This document shows positions 21,549-30,287 of a DNA stretch of 64,000 bases, piece by piece. Position 1 is the stretch's first letter. Every line of letters starts with the position of its first letter. Origin of the DNA: Escherichia coli (GTDB lineage: Bacteria; Pseudomonadota; Gammaproteobacteria; Enterobacterales; Enterobacteriaceae); the NCBI RefSeq assembly GCF_050920415.1, contig NZ_CP169309.1. One strand, 5' to 3'. A program made the translations under genes and the position numbers. The notes beneath the pieces were generated by a model that did not search any database, had not been told where the DNA came from, and saw only the letters and a list, made by a program, of their open reading frames with translations.

Positions 21549-22931
21549 TCAACCTGCCACACTCCCCCACACCAGTTGCCCTTTATGGAACGTTGCGGTT
21601 CTCGGCGAGATACGCGCCACCGCCTCGGCGGAACAGGAGGCGTCCACCAGCACAAAGCTGGCGTCATCCTGCGCTTTGGGCCAGACGCGCTCGCCTTTTT
21701 CGTTGAGCGGCAATACATCACCAGTGGCTAAAAACAGCGAGCGGGAGAGGTTCTGTTCGTTAGGACGAATATAGAGTTGCGCATACAGATTGGCTTTTTC
21801 CAGCATGTCACCCAGGCCGTAAGGCGACCAGTGGTCGATAACGCTGTCGGTGCCAGTCATGACTTTTACACCTTTGTCGTGCAGCTGTTTGAGTGGCATA
21901 TGCAACGTGCCAATCGGTACCGTCGAGGCAATAGAAATTTGCTGCGCCGCCATCCGGTGCGCCAGTTCATCTACCTGTTGCTCATTGAGCGTTGCCAGCG
22001 CAAAGGCGTGGCTGATGGTCAGTTTGCCCTTCAGTTGCGGCGTTTTCTCCACCATTTCAACCATATAATTGATGGCCGCCACGCCTGCCGGAGTGGTTTC
22101 ATGCAGATGAATATCGACGCCTTTGTCGTAGTCCAGCGCAATCTGGAACATGGTGTCGAGGGATTTTTCCATCGCGCCATCAACACTGGTCGGGTCCAGC
22201 CCGCCGACGTAATGCGCCCCTGCCTGCATCGCTTCACGCATCAAGGGTTCCGATTTCGACAGCAGCAAACCGTGCTGCGGGAAGGCGACGATTTCACACT
22301 CGAAGCCCGCCTGACGTCGCGCCAGCACCGCCTGCAAATTTTGCAGATTTTTCAGGCCGGAAACCGGTTCGATATTGCAGTGGCTGCGGGCAATGGTGGT
22401 GCCTTTCGACTGCAATAAATCGATCAGTTTTTCTGCCCGCTCCTGAGTGTAGGGTTGCAGTTCCGGCAGCATTTTCTGCTCAAGTTTGATCATGTCCTGG
22501 ATAGTGGTGCCTGCAGGGCGATTGAGTGAGCGCCACGGTCCGCCGTAAAAGGTTTTGTCAAGATGAATATGCATGTCGCGAGTAGTGGGCAACATAAGCT
22601 TACCGCCAGCGTCATAGTGCGGTAGCGTGGCGTCCGGATGCTGCTTGTTCTCATGTAGCGCAACAATTTTACCGTCCTGAATCTCCACGGTCTGGCGCGC
22701 CGTGCGGGTCTGTACTGCCACACCGTTTTCGTAGTCAAAACCGGTTTCCAGCAGCACGTTGTCGAGATAGTAGTGCGGGTCAGTGATTTTCATTGTGTTA
22801 TTCGCGTCGCAGTGGGTTGTGCCAGAGACCTCCGCATGGGCGAATGGCACAGAGGTACCAAACAGCGCGGCGGCGGTGACCATCTTACCGCTCTGGCTCA
22901 AAAACTCACGACGGCTATTGTTTTCTTTCAT
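21549..22931 (-). CDS. yahJ: Amidohydrolase-superfamily deaminase YahJ with twin-arginine signal peptide, 460 aa
   Basis: N-terminus MKENNSRREFLSQSGKMVTAAALFG…AHA carries a Tat motif (SRREFL); metal-dependent hydrolase HxH and DxH motifs. Confidence 0.85.
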   Translation of the reverse strand: MKENNSRREFLSQSGKMVTAAALFGTSVPFAHAEVSGTTHCDANNTMKITDPHYYLDNVLLETGFDYENGVAVQTRTARQTVEIQDGKIVALHENKQHPDATLPHYDAGGKLMLPTTRDMHIHLDKTFYGGPWRSLNRPAGTTIQDMIKLEQKMLPELQPYTQERAEKLIDLLQSKGTTIARSHCNIEPVSGLKNLQNLQAVLARRQAGFECEIVAFPQHGLLLSKSEPLMREAMQAGAHYVGGLDPTSVDGAMEKSLDTMFQIALDYDKGVDIHLHETTPAGVAAINYMVEMVEKTPQLKGKLTISHAFALATLNEQQVDELAHRMAAQQISIASTVPIGTLHMPLKQLHDKGVKVMTGTDSVIDHWSPYGLGDMLEKANLYAQLYIRPNEQNLSRSLFLATGDVLPLNEKGERVWPKAQDDASFVLVDASCSAEAVARISPRTATFHKGQLVWGSVAG

Positions 22932-22940
22932 CTTACGTCC

Positions 22941-23891
22941 TTACGTTTTAATAATATGGGTGCCCGTCTCGCCACGCAGCGCCGCGGGCAGGCATTCCGG
23001 CGTGGTGATAATCACTTCTTTACCGCCCTGTTCCAGGAACGTCAGGCTGGCGATGATTTTTGGCAACATGCTGCCTGGCGGGAAATGCCCTTCCTGCATA
23101 TAGCGGGTCATGGTGGCAATATCCACCCGATCCAGCGCCTGCTGCTGCGGTTTGCCAAAATGAATACACACTTTTTCGACGCCGGTGGTGATCACCAGAA
23201 TGTCGGCGTGAATTTCGCGGGCCAGCAGCGCGGTGGAGAGATCTTTGTCGATAACCGCGTCCACGCTTTGGTAATCTCCCGCGTCAGTACGCACCACCGG
23301 AATTCCGCCACCGCCCGCACCAATCACCACAAACCCTTGTTGGATCAGCGCTTTAATGGCAGGTGCTTCAACAATACGTTTCGGTTCCGGCGAGGCGACC
23401 ACGCGGCGATAGCCGCGTCCGGCATCTTCAACAAAACGCCAGTCAGGGTTTGCCTTTTGAAATTCGTTACGCTGGCTTTCACTGAAGAATGCGCCAATGG
23501 GCTTGGTGGGGTGAGCAAATCCCGGATCGTTTTTATCCACTTCCACCTGAGTCACCACGGTGACGGCTTTTTTCTCGCCGTGGCGCGCCAGCCGATTGTT
23601 CAGCGCCTGTTGGATCAAGTAGCCAATGCCGCCTTGCGTATCCGCCACACAGTTCGCCAGCGGCGTTAAGGGCAGCCCTTCGCGCTCGTGGGCAATCTCC
23701 GCGCGGCGTAAATCCAGCCCGACCTGCGGCCCGTTGCCGTGGGTCAGCACAATGTCGTAATCGGAAGCCAGCATTTCCAGCACCGTATCGGCGACGGCCT
23801 TCACCGCCTCCGCCTGATGCTCAATCGACTGGCTGGCGTTATCTTTGATAATGCTGTTGCCACCAATGGCAACGACCACAAGTTCTTTCAT
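22941..23891 (-). CDS. yahI: Carbamate kinase-like protein YahI, 316 aa
   Basis: Amino-acid-kinase fold typical of ArcC carbamate kinases (VVAIGGNS…, GGGGIPV motifs). Confidence 0.85.
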   Translation of the reverse strand: MKELVVVAIGGNSIIKDNASQSIEHQAEAVKAVADTVLEMLASDYDIVLTHGNGPQVGLDLRRAEIAHEREGLPLTPLANCVADTQGGIGYLIQQALNNRLARHGEKKAVTVVTQVEVDKNDPGFAHPTKPIGAFFSESQRNEFQKANPDWRFVEDAGRGYRRVVASPEPKRIVEAPAIKALIQQGFVVIGAGGGGIPVVRTDAGDYQSVDAVIDKDLSTALLAREIHADILVITTGVEKVCIHFGKPQQQALDRVDIATMTRYMQEGHFPPGSMLPKIIASLTFLEQGGKEVIITTPECLPAALRGETGTHIIKT

Positions 23892-23941
23892 GTTGTTATG
23901 TCCGCTACAGAGGGTGATGGGGTTATGACCAACGCCAAATT

Positions 23942-24021
23942 GCCTGATGCGCTACGCTTATCAGGCCTACAGATTCTTGCGCCACTCGTAGGCCGGATAA
24001 GGCGTTCACGCCGCATCCGGC
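23942..24021. repeat. REP/BIME element in the yahI–yahG spacer
   Basis: GCCTGATGCGCTACGCTTATCAGGCCTAC plus an inverted GGCGTTCACGCCGCATCCGGCA unit; the small track ORF 23888..24124 overlaps it and is probably not coding. Confidence 0.8.
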
Positions 24022-28508: not shown

Positions 28509-28765
28509 TCACATTCCCCTGGTTTTTGTGGCTGTTTTCGATGAATTGAGAATAGCAACGATAATCTGATAAAAGAACCCGCTTAAATTTAATTCGCCGT
28601 ATTTCGCCTTTTTGTTGAATGATGTTCAACAATCTTTTCGCAGTGTGCGGTAGTGCAATATTTATTTCTTTGACCCGATACCCTTTCACTCAATCAGGTT
28701 TTATTTCTCTATAGTCTGCACATGTAAGAGTAGCTTTCGTCCATGTCTAACCAGAGGGGAACAAG

Positions 28766-29263
28766 ATGAACGGACTCACGGCAACGGGTATAACCGTCGG
28801 TATTTGTGCAGGGCTTTGGCAGTTAGTGTCTTCACATGTCGGGCTCTCTCAGGGATGGGAATTATTAGGAACCATTGGCTTCGTCGCCTTTTGCAGTTTT
28901 TATGCCGCAGGCGGCGGTAAATCGGGGTTTATCAGAAGCCTGGCGGTTAATTATTCCGGGATGGTGTGGGCGTTTTTCGCCGCGCTGGCTGCCGGTTGGC
29001 TGGCCTCGGTGAGTGGGATTTCCGGCTTCTGGGCGAGCGTGATTATGACTGTACCCTTCTCGGCGGTGGTGGTCTGGCAAGGACGTTTCGGTTTACTGTC
29101 TTTTATTCCCGGAGGCTTTCTCGGCATGACGCTATTTTTTGCCAGCGGGATGAACTGGACGGTGACATTACTGGGTTTTCTGGCGGGTAACTGCGTGGGG
29201 ATAATTTCAGAATATGGCGGACAAAAATTAAGCGAAGCGACGACTAAACGCGACGGGTATTAA
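28766..29263 (+). CDS. yahC: Inner-membrane protein YahC, 165 aa
   Basis: Hydrophobic four-helix-type small membrane protein, divergent from yahD. Confidence 0.8.
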   Translation: MNGLTATGITVGICAGLWQLVSSHVGLSQGWELLGTIGFVAFCSFYAAGGGKSGFIRSLAVNYSGMVWAFFAALAAGWLASVSGISGFWASVIMTVPFSAVVVWQGRFGLLSFIPGGFLGMTLFFASGMNWTVTLLGFLAGNCVGIISEYGGQKLSEATTKRDGY

Positions 29264-29354
29264 AAGTTATTCAAAAATGATTATCTATCTTTAACCGATA
29301 CCTCTACAGTCATAGCTGGAGAAATTCATAGTAGATAATGGCGGGAATGGTTTA

Positions 29355-30287
29355 ATGAACTCAATTTTTACCGAAGAGAATCTGTTGGCATTTACTACCG
29401 CTGCGCGTTTTGGCAGCTTCAGTAAAGCTGCAGAAGAGTTGGGTTTAACCACTTCCGCCATTAGCTACACCATCAAGCGAATGGAAACAGGGCTGGATGT
29501 GGTGCTGTTCACTCGCAGTACCCGCAGCATTGAGTTAACGGAGTCCGGGCGTTATTTTTTCCGCAAAGCTACCGACCTGCTGAATGATTTTCACGCCATC
29601 AAACGCAGCATCGATACTATTTCGCAGGGCATAGAAGCGCGTGTGCGTATTTGTATTAATCAGCTGCTTTATACGCCCAAACACACCGCACGCTTATTAC
29701 AGGTACTGAAAAAGCAATTTCCAACCTGCCAGATTACCGTCACCACCGAAGTGTATAATGGCGTCTGGGATGCGATTATTAATAATCAGGCGAATATCGC
29801 TATCGGCGCACCCGACACGCTGCTGGACGGCGGCGGCATTGATTACACGGAGATTGGCGCGATTCGCTGGGCTTTTGCTATCGCCCCGGATCACCCGTTA
29901 GCCTTTGTGCCGGAACCCATCGCCGAAAGCCAACTACGTCTCTATCCTAATATCATGGTGGAAGACACCGCGCATACGATTAATAAAAAAGTGGGCTGGT
30001 TGCTGCATGGGCAGGAGTCGATTCTGGTGCCAGATTTCAACACCAAATGTCAGTGCCAGATTTTAGGCGAAGGAATTGGTTTTTTGCCGGATTACATGGT
30101 CCGTGAGGCGATGGCGCAATCCCTGCTGGTTACCCGACAAATCCATAATCCGCGCCAGGATTCACGCATGTTACTGGCGACCCAGCACTCTGCCACCGGT
30201 CAGGTGACGCAGTGGATTAAAAAACAATTTTCGCCAAATGGCATATTAACAGGGATCTATCAGGATTTACTGCATCGGGAGAATTAA
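29355..30287 (+). CDS. yahB: LysR-family transcriptional regulator YahB, 310 aa
   Basis: N-terminal LysR HTH (…FTTAARFGSFSKAAEELGLTTSAISYTIKRME…). Confidence 0.85.
   Translation: MNSIFTEENLLAFTTAARFGSFSKAAEELGLTTSAISYTIKRMETGLDVVLFTRSTRSIELTESGRYFFRKATDLLNDFHAIKRSIDTISQGIEARVRICINQLLYTPKHTARLLQVLKKQFPTCQITVTTEVYNGVWDAIINNQANIAIGAPDTLLDGGGIDYTEIGAIRWAFAIAPDHPLAFVPEPIAESQLRLYPNIMVEDTAHTINKKVGWLLHGQESILVPDFNTKCQCQILGEGIGFLPDYMVREAMAQSLLVTRQIHNPRQDSRMLLATQHSATGQVTQWIKKQFSPNGILTGIYQDLLHREN

What the first reader, a model, noticed from the sequence alone, without database searches (positions are those of the whole stretch)
21549..30287. yahD–yahJ cluster: a cryptic carbamate-kinase-linked catabolic module paralogous to the fdrA/ylbE/ylbF/carbamate-kinase set of the allantoin region
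Seven co-oriented genes, yahD (ankyrin), yahE (DUF2877), yahF (FdrA-like), yahG (DUF1116), yahI (carbamate kinase) and yahJ (amidohydrolase), lie opposite a divergent LysR regulator (yahB) and small membrane protein (yahC). The yahE/yahF and yahF/yahG frames overlap (11 nt and a TGATG junction), implying coupled translation and probably a complex. The same domain trio sits next to a carbamate kinase in the allantoin/oxalurate locus, where it is linked to carbamoyl-group transfer. This suggests a pathway that releases carbamoyl phosphate from an unknown ureido or carbamoyl compound and harvests ATP through YahI. The substrate and inducer are unknown as far as I know.
Basis: partly seen in the sequence, partly recalled or inferred. 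Interest (0 to 1): 0.7.

Follow-up and report, generated by a model that had tools for sequence, protein, structure and literature searches.

The report
Second AllFGH-type carbamoyl-phosphate module (yah)
This is the well-known but still uncharacterised E. coli yahB–yahJ locus, a paralogue of the recently solved allantoin-branch enzyme set (oxamic transcarbamylase AllFGH plus carbamate kinase). It most likely makes ATP from a different, still unknown ureide, and the E. coli copy has lost the permease that almost every other copy carries.

Summary
Window 21549-30287 is the E. coli yah locus. yahD, E, F, G, I and J lie on the minus strand and yahC and yahB on the plus strand. The yahE/yahF overlap is 11 nt and the yahF/yahG junction is TGATG. 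There are six co-oriented genes, not seven: "yahH" is a 153-nt REP spacer.

The paralogy is real and wider than stated. YahF/AllF are 39% identical, YahG/AllG 45%, YahE/AllH 25%, YahI/AllK 38% and YahB/AllS 38%. Public annotation (Pfam AllF/G/H, RefSeq) already encodes this. AllFGH was shown to be oxamic transcarbamylase in 2024. I found no paper on yah function.

New here, from 90 related loci:
- The yah-type set is one tight orthologous group (YahG 76-99% identical across phyla).
- An ankyrin protein (YahD) is present in every locus where that flank is visible.
- YahE is absent in 25 of 78 loci.
- A 517-aa transporter lies between yahG and yahI in 58 of 75 loci. It is missing from the Escherichia clade, which alone has yahC.
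- YahJ is a Tat-exported, periplasmic AtzC/cytosine-deaminase-like hydrolase.
- A conserved palindrome lies upstream of yahD.
- A complete copy travels on conjugative E. coli plasmids.

The substrate remains unknown. Moderately interesting.

The parts
21549..22931 (-). yahJ: Tat-exported (periplasmic) metal-dependent amidohydrolase of the cytosine-deaminase/AtzC branch, 460 aa
   Evidence: NCBIfam NF005312 scores 717 bits against a cut-off of 447. The cytosine deaminase equivalogs score far below their cut-offs. The nearest solved chains are annotated N-isopropylammelide isopropylaminohydrolase (6nbo, 4e-44; 2qt3, 6e-30) and cytosine deaminase. The protein has SRREFL at residues 6-11, AHA at 31-33, HIH at 121-123, HLHE at 275-278 and GTD at 360-362. 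The RRxF signal is kept in 75 of 75 orthologues. YahJ is listed among Tat substrates, and a yahJ deletion had a competitive index of 0.70 in mice (PMC7549933).
22941..23891 (-). yahI: carbamate kinase family protein, 316 aa
   Evidence: NF009007 scores 647 bits against a cut-off of 266. The arcC equivalog TIGR00746 scores 347.4, just under its cut-off of 358.25. YahI is 38% identical to AllK/YbcF (E 2e-56). The nearest solved chains are P. furiosus and E. faecalis carbamate kinases (1e19, 1.5e-82; 1b7b, 5e-73). The motifs GGN, HGNGPQVG, GGGGxPV and DKD are shared with AllK.
23892..24044 (.). REP/BIME-type dispersed repeat filling the yahG-yahI spacer. This is the position of K-12 'yahH', and in most other genera of a 517-aa transporter gene.
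   Evidence: The spacer has a median of at least 37 places per E. coli genome. It gives a sub-threshold naRNA4 match at 23991-24046 and folds into two hairpins. K-12 has 421 nt here. In 58 of 75 related loci a transporter gene occupies this interval.
24045..25463 (-). yahG: DUF1116/AllG-family subunit, 472 aa, with a ~55-aa N-terminal extension
   Evidence: YahG is 45% identical to AllG/YlbE over 415 aa (E 5e-119). Residues 12-53 match AllF residues 513-554 (E 6e-4). Pfam PF06545 is recorded on orthologues. The solved chain 3clq matches at E 4e-196. The motifs HAGPP, MGDExHxRN, GDSAITETxGIGG and NTxIAHK are shared with AllG.
25463..27010 (-). yahF: FdrA/AllF-family subunit (succinyl-CoA-synthetase-alpha-like), 515 aa
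   Evidence: NF004760 scores 490.7 bits against a cut-off of 433. YahF is 39% identical to AllF over 513 aa (E 3e-102). The solved FdrA chain 3dmy matches at 7e-83. The motifs GPDCGT, GASGTG, GxGGRDLS and PHPMIDP are shared with AllF.
27000..27863 (-). yahE: DUF2877/AllH-family protein, 287 aa, probably auxiliary
   Evidence: Pfam PF11392 AllH matches at E 1.5e-27. YahE is 25% identical to AllH/YlbF (E 7e-10). The motifs GxGxGLTPSxDDxLxG and GxxSGxDxLxG are invariant. The gene is absent from 25 of 78 related loci. A confident model (pLDDT 89.6) has no solved structural relative.
27903..28508 (-). yahD: ankyrin-repeat protein, 201 aa, first gene of the operon and present throughout the yah-type group
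   Evidence: NCBIfam and PDB give ankyrin matches. An orthologue is present in every related locus where that flank is visible (78 of 80 genome loci, the other two being cut), at 53-97% identity. In Bosea and Cytobacillus it is fused to TPR repeats.
28547..28658 (-). Conserved yahD control region: palindrome ATTGTTGAA-N5-TTCAACAA (28612-28633) and three further conserved blocks (28547-28559, 28571-28589, 28644-28658). It is the inferred YahB operator and activator-dependent promoter.
   Evidence: A 16-genus alignment of the region upstream of yahD shows near-invariant blocks from Aeromonas to E. coli. The exact palindrome occurs once in the window and has no counterpart in the all locus. Binding by YahB is inferred, not shown.
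28766..29263 (+). yahC: DUF1097 inner-membrane protein, 165 aa, found only in the clade of clusters that lack the 517-aa transporter
   Evidence: Pfam PF06496 matches at E 1.2e-26. Hydrophobic segments span the protein. It is present in 17 of 80 loci and never together with the transporter. Relatives were found only within that clade, with many truncated E. coli alleles.
29355..30287 (+). yahB: LysR-type regulator, 310 aa, paralogue of AllS and PunR
   Evidence: The best NCBIfam families are AllS (268 bits, below its cut-off of 372) and PunR (239 bits, below 345). YahB is 38% identical to AllS over 290 aa (E 3e-72). A YahB orthologue flanks the cluster in nearly all proteobacterial loci. AllS directly activates allFGHK (PMC12535856).

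Best explanation
yahD-yahJ is an operon for a second FdrA-type (AllFGH-like) phosphorolytic carbamoyltransferase coupled to a carbamate kinase.

Inferred mechanism:
1. YahF and YahG form the catalytic core.
2. YahE (AllH-like) is an auxiliary subunit.
3. YahD (ankyrin) is a partner protein specific to this group.
4. The complex cleaves an N-acyl-urea type ureide with phosphate, giving carbamoyl phosphate.
5. YahI converts carbamoyl phosphate plus ADP into ATP, NH3 and CO2.
6. YahB, a paralogue of AllS, controls the operon through a conserved palindrome about 105-125 nt upstream of yahD.
7. YahJ is exported by the Tat pathway. In the periplasm it deaminates or hydrolyses an external amino-N-heterocycle or amide precursor. 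It is an accessory front end, because several complete clusters lack it.

The substrate is probably not the oxalurate made inside the cell from allantoin. It is more likely a related ureide derived from a pyrimidine, triazine or purine ring and taken up from outside.

In most bacteria a dedicated NCS2/AzgA/SulP-fold permease is encoded between yahG and yahI. The Escherichia/Kluyvera/Raoultella version has lost it and carries the small membrane protein YahC instead. The chromosomal E. coli module may therefore depend on another uptake route.

What is shown: gene anatomy, homology, fusions, the signal peptide, conservation and distribution. What is inferred: the chemistry, the direction of flux, the regulator-operator pairing and the role of YahC.
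For: Paralogy to a biochemically proven enzyme set:
- Identities to the K-12 all proteins are 39% (YahF/AllF), 45% (YahG/AllG), 25% (YahE/AllH) and 38% (YahI/AllK).
- The family models agree.
- Purified AllF-AllG-AllH is oxamic transcarbamylase and allK encodes the catabolic carbamate kinase (PMC11326118, PMC9843812).
- The most conserved motifs of all four proteins are retained.

YahF and YahG act as one enzyme:
- Their genes overlap by 1 nt.
- Many ~1000-aa AllF-AllG fusions exist.
- The ~45-aa junction segment sits on different sides of the gene boundary in yah and all.

Linkage to carbamate kinase is conserved: YahI is present in 76 of 80 genome loci (the rest are cut) and in the Brevibacillus, Janthinobacterium, Bosea and Pasteurella loci. 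No kinase was called in the 19.5 kb of the Cytobacillus locus.

The regulator is also paralogous. YahB's best family is AllS, AllS activates allFGHK, and a palindrome upstream of yahD is conserved across 16 genera.

YahJ is periplasmic: the RRxF signal is present in 75 of 75 orthologues.

The substrate class is nucleobase- or ureide-like:
- The co-located transporter has the UraA/UapA/AZG/SLC26 fold.
- In one Brevibacillus locus it is replaced by an NCS1 permease resembling the allantoin permease, followed by a CDA-fold deaminase.
- PucR-type regulators occur in Firmicutes and Bosea.
- YahJ is AtzC/cytosine-deaminase-like.
- A 49%-identical relative of YahG sits directly after an AtzD/TrzD ring-opening amidohydrolase, whose known products are acyl-ureas.
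- Nitrifier allFGHK genes lie beside biuret and triuret hydrolase genes (PMC12625717).

The module is not simply redundant with allFGH. A K-12 allFGH deletion makes no oxamate although yahEFG is intact.

The genes are functional:
- dN/dS is 0.03-0.16 for all eight genes.
- yahEFG is present in 5020 of 5426 complete E. coli genomes.
Against: - No Yah protein has been assayed, so the chemistry rests on 25-45% identity to one characterised system.
- No ring-opening enzyme is encoded in the cluster, so a deaminated heterocycle from YahJ cannot feed the transcarbamylase directly.
- Some FdrA/DUF1116 pairs lie in loci where no carbamate kinase was seen (L094, L096). The pair is therefore not always a carbamoyl-phosphate producer.
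- YahE is missing from 25 of 78 loci, whereas the AllFGH paper says three genes are needed. In that paper, however, allFG alone restored 7% of wild-type oxamate.
- The fold of the transporter also fits small-anion carriers (BicA, SLC26Dg), so it does not single out nucleobases.
- The mutual exclusion of yahC and the transporter can be traced to a single ancestral event.
- The absence of oxamate in the allFGH mutant may only mean that yah was not induced.
Confidence: 0.6

Rival explanations
1. YahEFG is a second oxamic transcarbamylase. It acts on oxalurate, as AllFGH does, but scavenges oxalurate or a precursor such as parabanate from outside the cell. This would explain why the group carries its own permease and a periplasmic hydrolase, whereas AllFGH handles oxalurate made internally from allantoin.
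For: The only characterised relative uses oxalurate (PMC11326118). The conserved motifs are shared. The regulator is AllS-like. The transporter fold includes organic-anion carriers. An Enterococcus faecalis protein (3clq) matches YahG far better (E 4e-196) than E. coli AllG does (E 5e-119). Oxamic transcarbamylase activity was first described in a streptococcus (abstract of PMC11326118).
Against: A K-12 allFGH deletion produced zero oxamate with yahEFG present, although expression was not checked. The two sets are only 25-45% identical and form separate, separately conserved groups. The YahG type is a single 50%-identity cluster, distinct from AllG. The yah group has components the all group lacks (ankyrin protein, permease, YahJ). 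No operator is shared with the all locus.
Confidence: 0.15
2. The FdrA/DUF1116 core is not a carbamoyltransferase here. It carries out different chemistry on an N-rich substrate, for example an acyl-phosphate or CoA-ligase type reaction suggested by its succinyl-CoA-synthetase-like fold. YahI then either works on a different phosphoryl acceptor or makes carbamoyl phosphate rather than consuming it.
For: YahF matches succinyl-CoA synthetase alpha chains. FdrA/DUF1116 pairs occur in loci where no carbamate kinase was seen, next to ferredoxin-like, peptidase and dehydrogenase genes (L096; L094). The DUF1116 family is large, with 3366 representative clusters and only one member characterised. YahI scores just below the arcC equivalog cut-off.
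Against: The tight, conserved linkage to a carbamate kinase across phyla mirrors allFGHK. YahI retains the motifs it shares with the carbamate kinase AllK. The closest characterised homologue of every subunit is the transcarbamylase.
Confidence: 0.13
3. In E. coli the chromosomal module is an evolutionary remnant. After losing its permease it no longer supports growth on its original substrate and is retained by chance or for a minor moonlighting role. Only the plasmid-borne complete copy is functional.
For: The transporter gene is missing and REP elements fill its place. Many truncated yahC alleles exist in E. coli. No phenotype or inducer is reported. A complete copy with the permease spreads on conjugative plasmids.
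Against: Eight intact genes have dN/dS of 0.03-0.16 at dS of 0.11-0.25. yahEFG is present in 5020 of 5426 genomes. The permease-less form is also kept in Kluyvera, Raoultella, Pseudocitrobacter and Citrobacter amalonaticus. A yahJ mutant had a small fitness defect in mice.
Confidence: 0.1

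Closest known systems
AllFGH oxamic transcarbamylase with AllK carbamate kinase and the activator AllS (E. coli allantoin oxamate branch; PMC11326118, PMC9843812, PMC12535856)
   Same: The same three protein families plus a carbamate kinase lie in one operon, next to a LysR regulator of the same subfamily. 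Identities are 25-45%. Conserved motifs are shared. The genes are tightly packed or overlapping.
   Different: - Gene order is permuted: the DUF2877 gene comes first in yah and third in all.
- A ~45-aa segment lies on the DUF1116 protein in yah and on the FdrA protein in all.
- yah adds an ankyrin protein present in every sampled locus where that flank is visible, a dedicated permease (lost in E. coli), the membrane protein YahC and a periplasmic amidohydrolase.
- The DUF2877 gene is dispensable in many yah-type clusters.
- No allantoin-pathway genes are adjacent.
- No operator is shared.
- yah did not replace allFGH in vivo.
Arginine deiminase and agmatine deiminase pathways (catabolic ornithine or putrescine transcarbamylase plus carbamate kinase)
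   Same: The logic is the same: phosphorolysis of a ureido compound to carbamoyl phosphate, then substrate-level ATP formation by a carbamate kinase. These pathways often carry a dedicated transporter and a deiminase front end.
   Different: The transcarbamylase there belongs to the ATCase/OTCase fold, which is unrelated to FdrA/DUF1116/DUF2877. The substrates are alkyl-ureas (citrulline, carbamoylputrescine), not acyl-ureas.
Third E. coli FdrA/DUF1116/carbamate kinase cassette in the tkt1 island (GR29 of APEC/ExPEC; PMC3349570, PMC12928451)
   Same: It has an FdrA-like gene, a DUF1116 gene (46% identical to YahG), a DUF2877 gene and a carbamate kinase, together with a nucleobase-type permease and a hydrolase.
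   Different: The permease is an NCS1 CodB-like protein and the hydrolase is RutB/PncA-like (isochorismatase family). No ankyrin or YahJ-type gene is listed in those papers. It is found only in some pathotypes.
AtzC (N-isopropylammelide isopropylaminohydrolase) and CodA cytosine deaminase, as relatives of YahJ
   Same: YahJ belongs to the same amidohydrolase-superfamily branch, with an HxH motif plus further His and Asp motifs (HIH 121-123, HLHE 275-278, GTD 360-362). These enzymes hydrolyse exocyclic amino groups on pyrimidine or triazine rings.
   Different: YahJ has a Tat signal and is periplasmic. It scores far below the cytosine deaminase equivalog cut-offs. Its substrate is unknown.

Membership tests
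AllFGH-type (FdrA-type) carbamoyltransferase | FdrA/AllF subunit (HMA_AllF_N, CoA-binding and CoA-ligase domains) | tested here: met
   YahF scores 490.7 bits on NF004760 against a cut-off of 433. It is 39% identical to AllF. PF27530, PF02629 and PF00549 are recorded on orthologues.
AllFGH-type (FdrA-type) carbamoyltransferase | DUF1116/AllG subunit encoded next to the FdrA gene | tested here: met
   YahG is 45% identical to AllG (E 5e-119). PF06545 is recorded on orthologues. The genes overlap by 1 nt.
AllFGH-type (FdrA-type) carbamoyltransferase | DUF2877/AllH subunit | tested here: met
   YahE matches PF11392 at E 1.5e-27 and is 25% identical to AllH. However, 25 of 78 orthologous clusters lack this gene.
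AllFGH-type (FdrA-type) carbamoyltransferase | Co-operonic catabolic carbamate kinase | tested here: met
   yahI lies 153 nt downstream of yahG on the same strand. The linkage is conserved in 76 of 80 genome loci, and the remaining four are cut.
AllFGH-type (FdrA-type) carbamoyltransferase | Phosphate-dependent conversion of oxalurate to oxamate plus carbamoyl phosphate | not testable with these tools
   This needs an enzyme assay. Indirectly, a K-12 allFGH deletion makes no oxamate despite an intact yahEFG (PMC11326118), but expression was not controlled.
Carbamate kinase (arcC equivalog) | Score above the curated equivalog cut-off and retention of conserved kinase motifs | tested here: inconclusive
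   YahI scores 347.4 on TIGR00746 against a cut-off of 358.25, just below. It scores 647 on the subfamily model NF009007 against a cut-off of 266. The motifs GGN, HGNGPQVG, GGGGIPV and DKD are present. The solved carbamate kinase 1e19 matches at E 1.5e-82.
AllS (allantoin activator) equivalog | Score above the AllS equivalog cut-off | tested here: not met
   YahB scores 268 bits on NF007501 against a cut-off of 372. It is a paralogue (38% identical), not AllS.
Cytosine deaminase (CodA) equivalog | Score above the equivalog cut-off | tested here: not met
   YahJ scores 71 bits on NF005759 against a cut-off of 403. It belongs to the unnamed amidohydrolase subfamily NF005312, where it scores 717 against 447.
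Tat-exported proteins | N-terminal S/T-R-R-x-F-L motif, then a hydrophobic stretch and an A-x-A cleavage site | tested here: met
   YahJ has SRREFL at residues 6-11 and AHA at 31-33. The RRxF motif is kept in 75 of 75 orthologues. YahJ is treated as a Tat substrate in PMC7549933. Export itself was not tested here.
NCS2/AzgA/SulP-fold secondary transporters (for the 517-aa protein of related loci, which is absent from the window) | 7+7 inverted-repeat transmembrane fold | tested here: met
   The model has pLDDT 79.6. Foldseek matches SVCT1, BicA, SLC26Dg, AZG2, UraA and UapA at E 1e-7 to 1e-5 with TM-scores of about 0.5. No sequence-level match was found to Pfam, PDB or an NCS2 protein.

The most novel reading that the evidence does not exclude
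The yah-type set is a distinct four-protein enzyme system in which a bacterial ankyrin-repeat protein is an obligatory partner of a metabolic enzyme. The system lets enterobacteria make ATP and ammonia by phosphorolysis of a ureide that is not an allantoin intermediate. Candidates are products of urate, pyrimidine or triazine ring oxidation, such as exogenous oxalurate/parabanate, allophanate, carboxybiuret or malonurate. This would give a fitness benefit in the host, which would explain the spread of a complete copy on large conjugative plasmids in poultry-, pig- and human-associated E. coli and the mild attenuation of a yahJ mutant.
Probability: 0.15. Interest if true: 0.75.

Novelty: new variant of a known kind. 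Interest (0 to 1): 0.5.

Why it matters
FdrA/DUF1116/DUF2877 proteins form a large family: about 3,400 representative clusters match YahG, and only AllFGH has been characterised.

The yah-type group is the most widespread sharply defined subgroup. It occurs in Enterobacterales, Aeromonas, Pasteurellaceae, beta- and alpha-proteobacteria, bacilli and enterococci. It sits in the best-studied genome there is, yet its genes are still listed among the uncharacterised E. coli genes (the "y-ome").

Finding its substrate would add a new ATP-yielding nitrogen-catabolic route and would assign a function to eight E. coli y-genes. It would also show what a bacterial ankyrin protein does in metabolism.

The comparative anatomy gives practical guidance. 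K-12 is probably the wrong host for substrate screens because its copy lacks the permease. Citrobacter freundii, Enterobacter or the plasmid-borne copy should be used instead. The periplasmic location of YahJ means that precursor and true substrate must be tested separately.

Tried and rejected
- **Sequence-level link of the 517-aa transporter to known families.** There was no Pfam hit even at E 10. A profile search found no PDB hit. hhalign against an NCS2 protein gave probability 0.3. Only the predicted fold placed it. The 'xanthine permease' labels given by sources are therefore not verified.
- **Riboswitch search.** I searched for a riboswitch that might name the ligand in six diverse loci and in the window. 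None was found.
- **Independent association of DUF1097 with FdrA-type clusters.** This would have turned the yahC-for-transporter swap into a repeated event. The search returned only close relatives from the same clade, so the swap counts as one event.
- **Consensus promoter and terminator scan.** Promoter-like and terminator-like sites in the scanned region were no more frequent than in shuffles, and there are no minus-strand terminators inside the operon. This is uninformative beyond showing no obvious internal terminator.
- **Cross-regulation by AllS through a shared operator.** The yahD palindrome has no counterpart in the all locus.
- **Literature searches on yah gene names.** They returned mostly noise and no functional study.
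- **Is the ASCH plus ABC-transporter block downstream of yahJ part of the module?** I rejected this. It is absent from K-12 and from 59% of E. coli genomes. It is not linked to the cluster in other genera. A promoter-like site lies just upstream of it.

Full report
**1. What is at the coordinates**

The region is 100% identical to E. coli strain MFDS1022581 and about 96% identical to most other E. coli. RefSeq annotates it as yahJ, yahI, yahG, fdrA (= yahF), yahE and yahD on one strand and yahC and yahB on the other.

My ORF list and translations reproduce these genes exactly. They are 96-99% identical in protein to K-12 b0316-b0324.

- yahE and yahF overlap by 11 nt (27000-27010).
- yahF and yahG share the A of TGATG.

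The count of seven genes is not correct. Six genes are co-oriented. The seventh is K-12's "yahH". In the window this is a 153-nt spacer with no ORF. It matches a median of at least 37 places in every E. coli genome and is therefore a REP-type repeat. A 2024 review likewise calls yahH "filled with REP23 sites" (PMC11551758).

**2. Is the paralogy real?**

Yes, and it extends to the regulator. BLASTP against the K-12 allantoin locus gives:

| Pair | Identity | E-value |
|---|---|---|
| YahF / AllF (FdrA) | 39% over 513 aa | 3e-102 |
| YahG / AllG (YlbE) | 45% | 5e-119 |
| YahE / AllH (YlbF) | 25% | 7e-10 |
| YahI / AllK (YbcF) | 38% | 2e-56 |
| YahB / AllS | 38% | 3e-72 |

Family models agree:
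- YahF passes the FdrA model.
- YahE hits Pfam "AllH".
- YahI passes a carbamate kinase subfamily model and sits just under the arcC equivalog cut-off.
- YahB's best families are AllS and PunR, both below their cut-offs. It is a paralogue, not AllS.
- YahJ shows no significant pairwise similarity to allantoinase AllB.

The short, most conserved sequence blocks of all four enzyme subunits are shared between the two sets.

**3. What is known**

AllF-AllG-AllH was purified in 2024 and shown to be oxamic transcarbamylase (oxalurate + Pi <-> oxamate + carbamoyl phosphate). Its fold family is unrelated to classical transcarbamylases (PMC11326118). AllK is the catabolic carbamate kinase (PMC9843812). 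AllS and ArcA activate allFGHK (PMC12535856).

None of these papers mentions the yah genes. Pfam now names the families AllF/AllG/AllH. Recent RefSeq records call YahE an "oxamate carbamoyltransferase subunit AllH family protein". The family relationship is therefore already public.

The yah genes are still listed as uncharacterised, and I found no functional study.

**4. Evidence that YahF and YahG are one enzyme**

A full scan of 1.84 billion representative proteins found 3366 relatives of YahG. These include many ~1000-aa proteins in which an AllF-like part is fused to an AllG-like part.

A ~45-aa segment (VINVG...W.PP...) is the N-terminus of YahG, the C-terminus of AllF, and internal in the fusions. 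The gene boundary has moved across this segment. That is hard to explain unless the two proteins are parts of one assembly.

**5. The yah type is a distinct, widely spread, mobile orthologous group**

YahG is 76-79% identical in Brevibacillus, Paenibacillus, Psychrobacillus and Janthinobacterium, and 89% identical in Aeromonas. It matches the solved Enterococcus faecalis protein 3clq at E 4e-196. The whole group collapses into one 50%-identity cluster, and the next relatives are at most 50% identical.

I compared 80 genome loci and ten further loci by tblastn with each Yah protein. The common plan is:

LysR regulator (divergent) | ankyrin - AllH-like - AllF-like - AllG-like - 517-aa membrane protein - carbamate kinase - YahJ-type amidohydrolase.

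Variations on the plan:
- **Ankyrin protein.** It is present in every locus where that flank is visible. In Bosea and Cytobacillus it is fused to TPR repeats.
- **AllH-like gene.** It is absent from 25 of 78 loci. In 23 of these only 109-147 nt separate yahD from yahF. This fits the published observation that allFG without allH restored 7% of wild-type oxamate.
- **517-aa membrane protein.** It is present in 58 of 75 loci where the interval is visible. It also accompanies the cluster in Bosea, Pasteurella and Cytobacillus.
- **YahJ.** It is missing from the Aeromonas allosaccharophila, Janthinobacterium and Shimwellia loci and from the plasmid copy.

**6. The E. coli version is a derived form**

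All 17 loci without the membrane-protein gene belong to one clade: Escherichia, Pseudocitrobacter, Kluyvera, Citrobacter amalonaticus, Raoultella and Klebsiella spallanzanii. Fifteen of them show yahC between yahB and yahD, and the other two are cut on that side. No locus has both yahC and the membrane-protein gene.

Because the clade is monophyletic for this cluster, this counts as one evolutionary event and not as repeated co-variation. A search for more distant YahC relatives in other contexts found none. That YahC functionally replaces the transporter is therefore only a hypothesis.

The transporter has no Pfam, PDB-sequence or NCS2 profile match. Its model (pLDDT 79.6) has the 7+7 fold of UraA, UapA, AZG, SVCT and SLC26/BicA carriers. 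It could carry a nucleobase-like molecule or a small organic anion. The "xanthine permease" labels in source databases are not verified.

**7. YahJ is periplasmic**

YahJ begins MKENNSRREFLSQSGKMVTAAALFGTSVPFAHA. This is a twin-arginine signal with an AxA cleavage site. The RRxF motif is kept in all 75 orthologues.

YahJ is treated as a Tat substrate in an ExPEC study, where its deletion gave a competitive index of 0.70 (PMC7549933).

Its nearest solved relatives are enzymes annotated N-isopropylammelide isopropylaminohydrolase (AtzC type) and cytosine deaminase. It belongs to its own NCBIfam subfamily.

YahJ therefore cannot act on cytoplasmic intermediates. It most likely converts an external amino-heterocycle or amide before uptake.

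Different deaminase- or amidase-family genes lie in or next to the cluster in other taxa:
- a CDA-fold deaminase in Brevibacillus
- a cytoplasmic PRK05985-type amidohydrolase in Bosea
- an isochorismatase-family fragment in Cytobacillus

This suggests a variable front end feeding a constant core.

**8. Regulation**

The ~190 nt upstream of yahD contain blocks that are nearly invariant from Aeromonas to E. coli:
- a perfect palindrome ATTGTTGAA-N5-TTCAACAA at 28612-28633
- TTGCACTACCGCACA at 28644-28658
- two promoter-proximal blocks at 28547-28559 and 28571-28589

The palindrome is a plausible LysR site for YahB, but this is inferred. It has no counterpart in the all locus.

There is no minus-strand terminator-like site inside the operon, and no riboswitch was detected.

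**9. What substrate?**

This is not resolved. The clues point to an acyl-urea type ureide derived from an N-heterocycle:
- The characterised paralogue cleaves an N-acyl-urea.
- Transporters of nucleobase/anion type are present, including, in one Brevibacillus locus, an NCS1 permease resembling allantoin permease.
- PucR-type regulators occur in Firmicutes and Bosea.
- The regulator is AllS/PunR-like.
- YahJ is AtzC/cytosine-deaminase-like.
- A 49%-identical YahG relative is encoded immediately after an AtzD/TrzD ring-opening amidohydrolase. By established knowledge of that family, its products are carboxybiuret or ureidomalonate.
- A fused AllF-AllG lies next to a carbamate kinase and molybdenum-hydroxylase maturation genes.
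- Nitrifier allFGHK genes lie beside biuret and triuret hydrolase genes (PMC12625717).
- E. coli pathotypes carry a third cassette with a CodB-like permease and a RutB-like hydrolase (PMC12928451).

Against over-reading these clues:
- The yah cluster has no ring-opening enzyme.
- Two other FdrA/DUF1116 loci showed no carbamate kinase in the stretch retrieved.
- Oxalurate itself cannot be excluded. The absence of oxamate in a K-12 allFGH deletion may reflect lack of induction.

**10. Is it alive in E. coli?**

- All eight genes show dN/dS of 0.03-0.16 between the window and K-12, at dS of 0.11-0.25.
- yahEFG is present in 5020 of 5426 complete genomes.
- yahC shows many truncated alleles.
- A second, complete copy (regulator, ankyrin, AllH-, AllF- and AllG-like genes, permease, kinase; no yahC or yahJ) is present in 142 genomes. 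It is IS-flanked, at least 99% identical on about 70 plasmids, and 78 of the 86 matching plasmids are predicted conjugative.

**11. Verdict**

It was already implicit in public annotation, and the biochemistry is untested.

This analysis adds the anatomy of the orthologous group:
- the ankyrin protein is part of the core
- AllH is optional
- the permease has been lost from Escherichia
- YahJ is periplasmic
- an operator upstream of yahD is conserved
- a complete copy spreads on plasmids

It also gives concrete guidance for finding the substrate. I rate it a new variant of a known kind, of moderate interest.

Noticed in passing
L010 (plasmid pSA186_2, NZ_CP022731.1 17211-25644); not in the window: A second, complete yah-like module sits between IS elements. 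It comprises a LysR gene, ankyrin, DUF2877, FdrA and DUF1116 genes, a 516-aa permease and a carbamate kinase. It is present in 142 of 5426 E. coli genomes. It is at least 99% identical on about 70 plasmids (those listed are about 190-240 kb) from poultry, pigs and humans, and 78 of the 86 matching plasmids are predicted conjugative.
   Followed up: partly
window 15600-21500: An ASCH-domain gene and a four-gene sugar/AI-2-type ABC transporter lie between yahK and yahJ. This block is absent from K-12 and present in 2211 of 5426 E. coli genomes. It is not linked to the yah cluster in other genera. A strong promoter-like site (TTGTTA-18-TATAAT, 21478-21449, minus strand) lies upstream of it.
   Followed up: partly
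window 21549-30287 compared with K-12 (L003) and with L014/L015: This strain's yah region differs from almost all other E. coli by 4-5% at the DNA level (dS 0.11-0.25 against K-12). YahF, G, I and J are 95-99% identical to Pseudocitrobacter proteins, whereas YahD and YahE are only 55-73% identical. This mosaic pattern suggests recombination or transfer inside the cluster.
   Followed up: no
window 28766-29263 (yahC): Many E. coli assemblies carry truncated yahC products (about 100-141 aa, covering roughly half of the protein). This suggests recurrent frameshifts or relaxed constraint on this gene compared with its neighbours.
   Followed up: no
L005 6257-6464 and L006 5181-5333: In Janthinobacterium and Aeromonas allosaccharophila a pair of tRNA genes lies just upstream of the cluster. 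This is a typical position for horizontally acquired islands.
   Followed up: no
L028-L039 and other transporter-bearing loci, yahB-yahD intergenic region (alignment): Clusters that keep the transporter have an extra conserved upstream block. It holds a second ATTGTTGAATGTATTTGTAA element near yahB and a TTTGA-N6-TCACA element resembling a CRP site. In E. coli this part has been replaced by yahC.
   Followed up: no
L094 5614-9428 (metagenome contig): An AtzD/TrzD-family ring-opening amidohydrolase gene lies directly upstream of FdrA-like and DUF1116 genes. No DUF2877 gene and no carbamate kinase are visible in that locus. This may be a distinct cyanuric-acid or barbiturate-linked variant of the enzyme family.
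   Followed up: partly
window 30329-36902: The flanking genes are pdeL (EAL-domain regulator) and the autotransporter adhesin gene ehaA. ehaA is absent from the corresponding K-12 interval, where only the small gene yahV lies between betT and pdeL.
   Followed up: no
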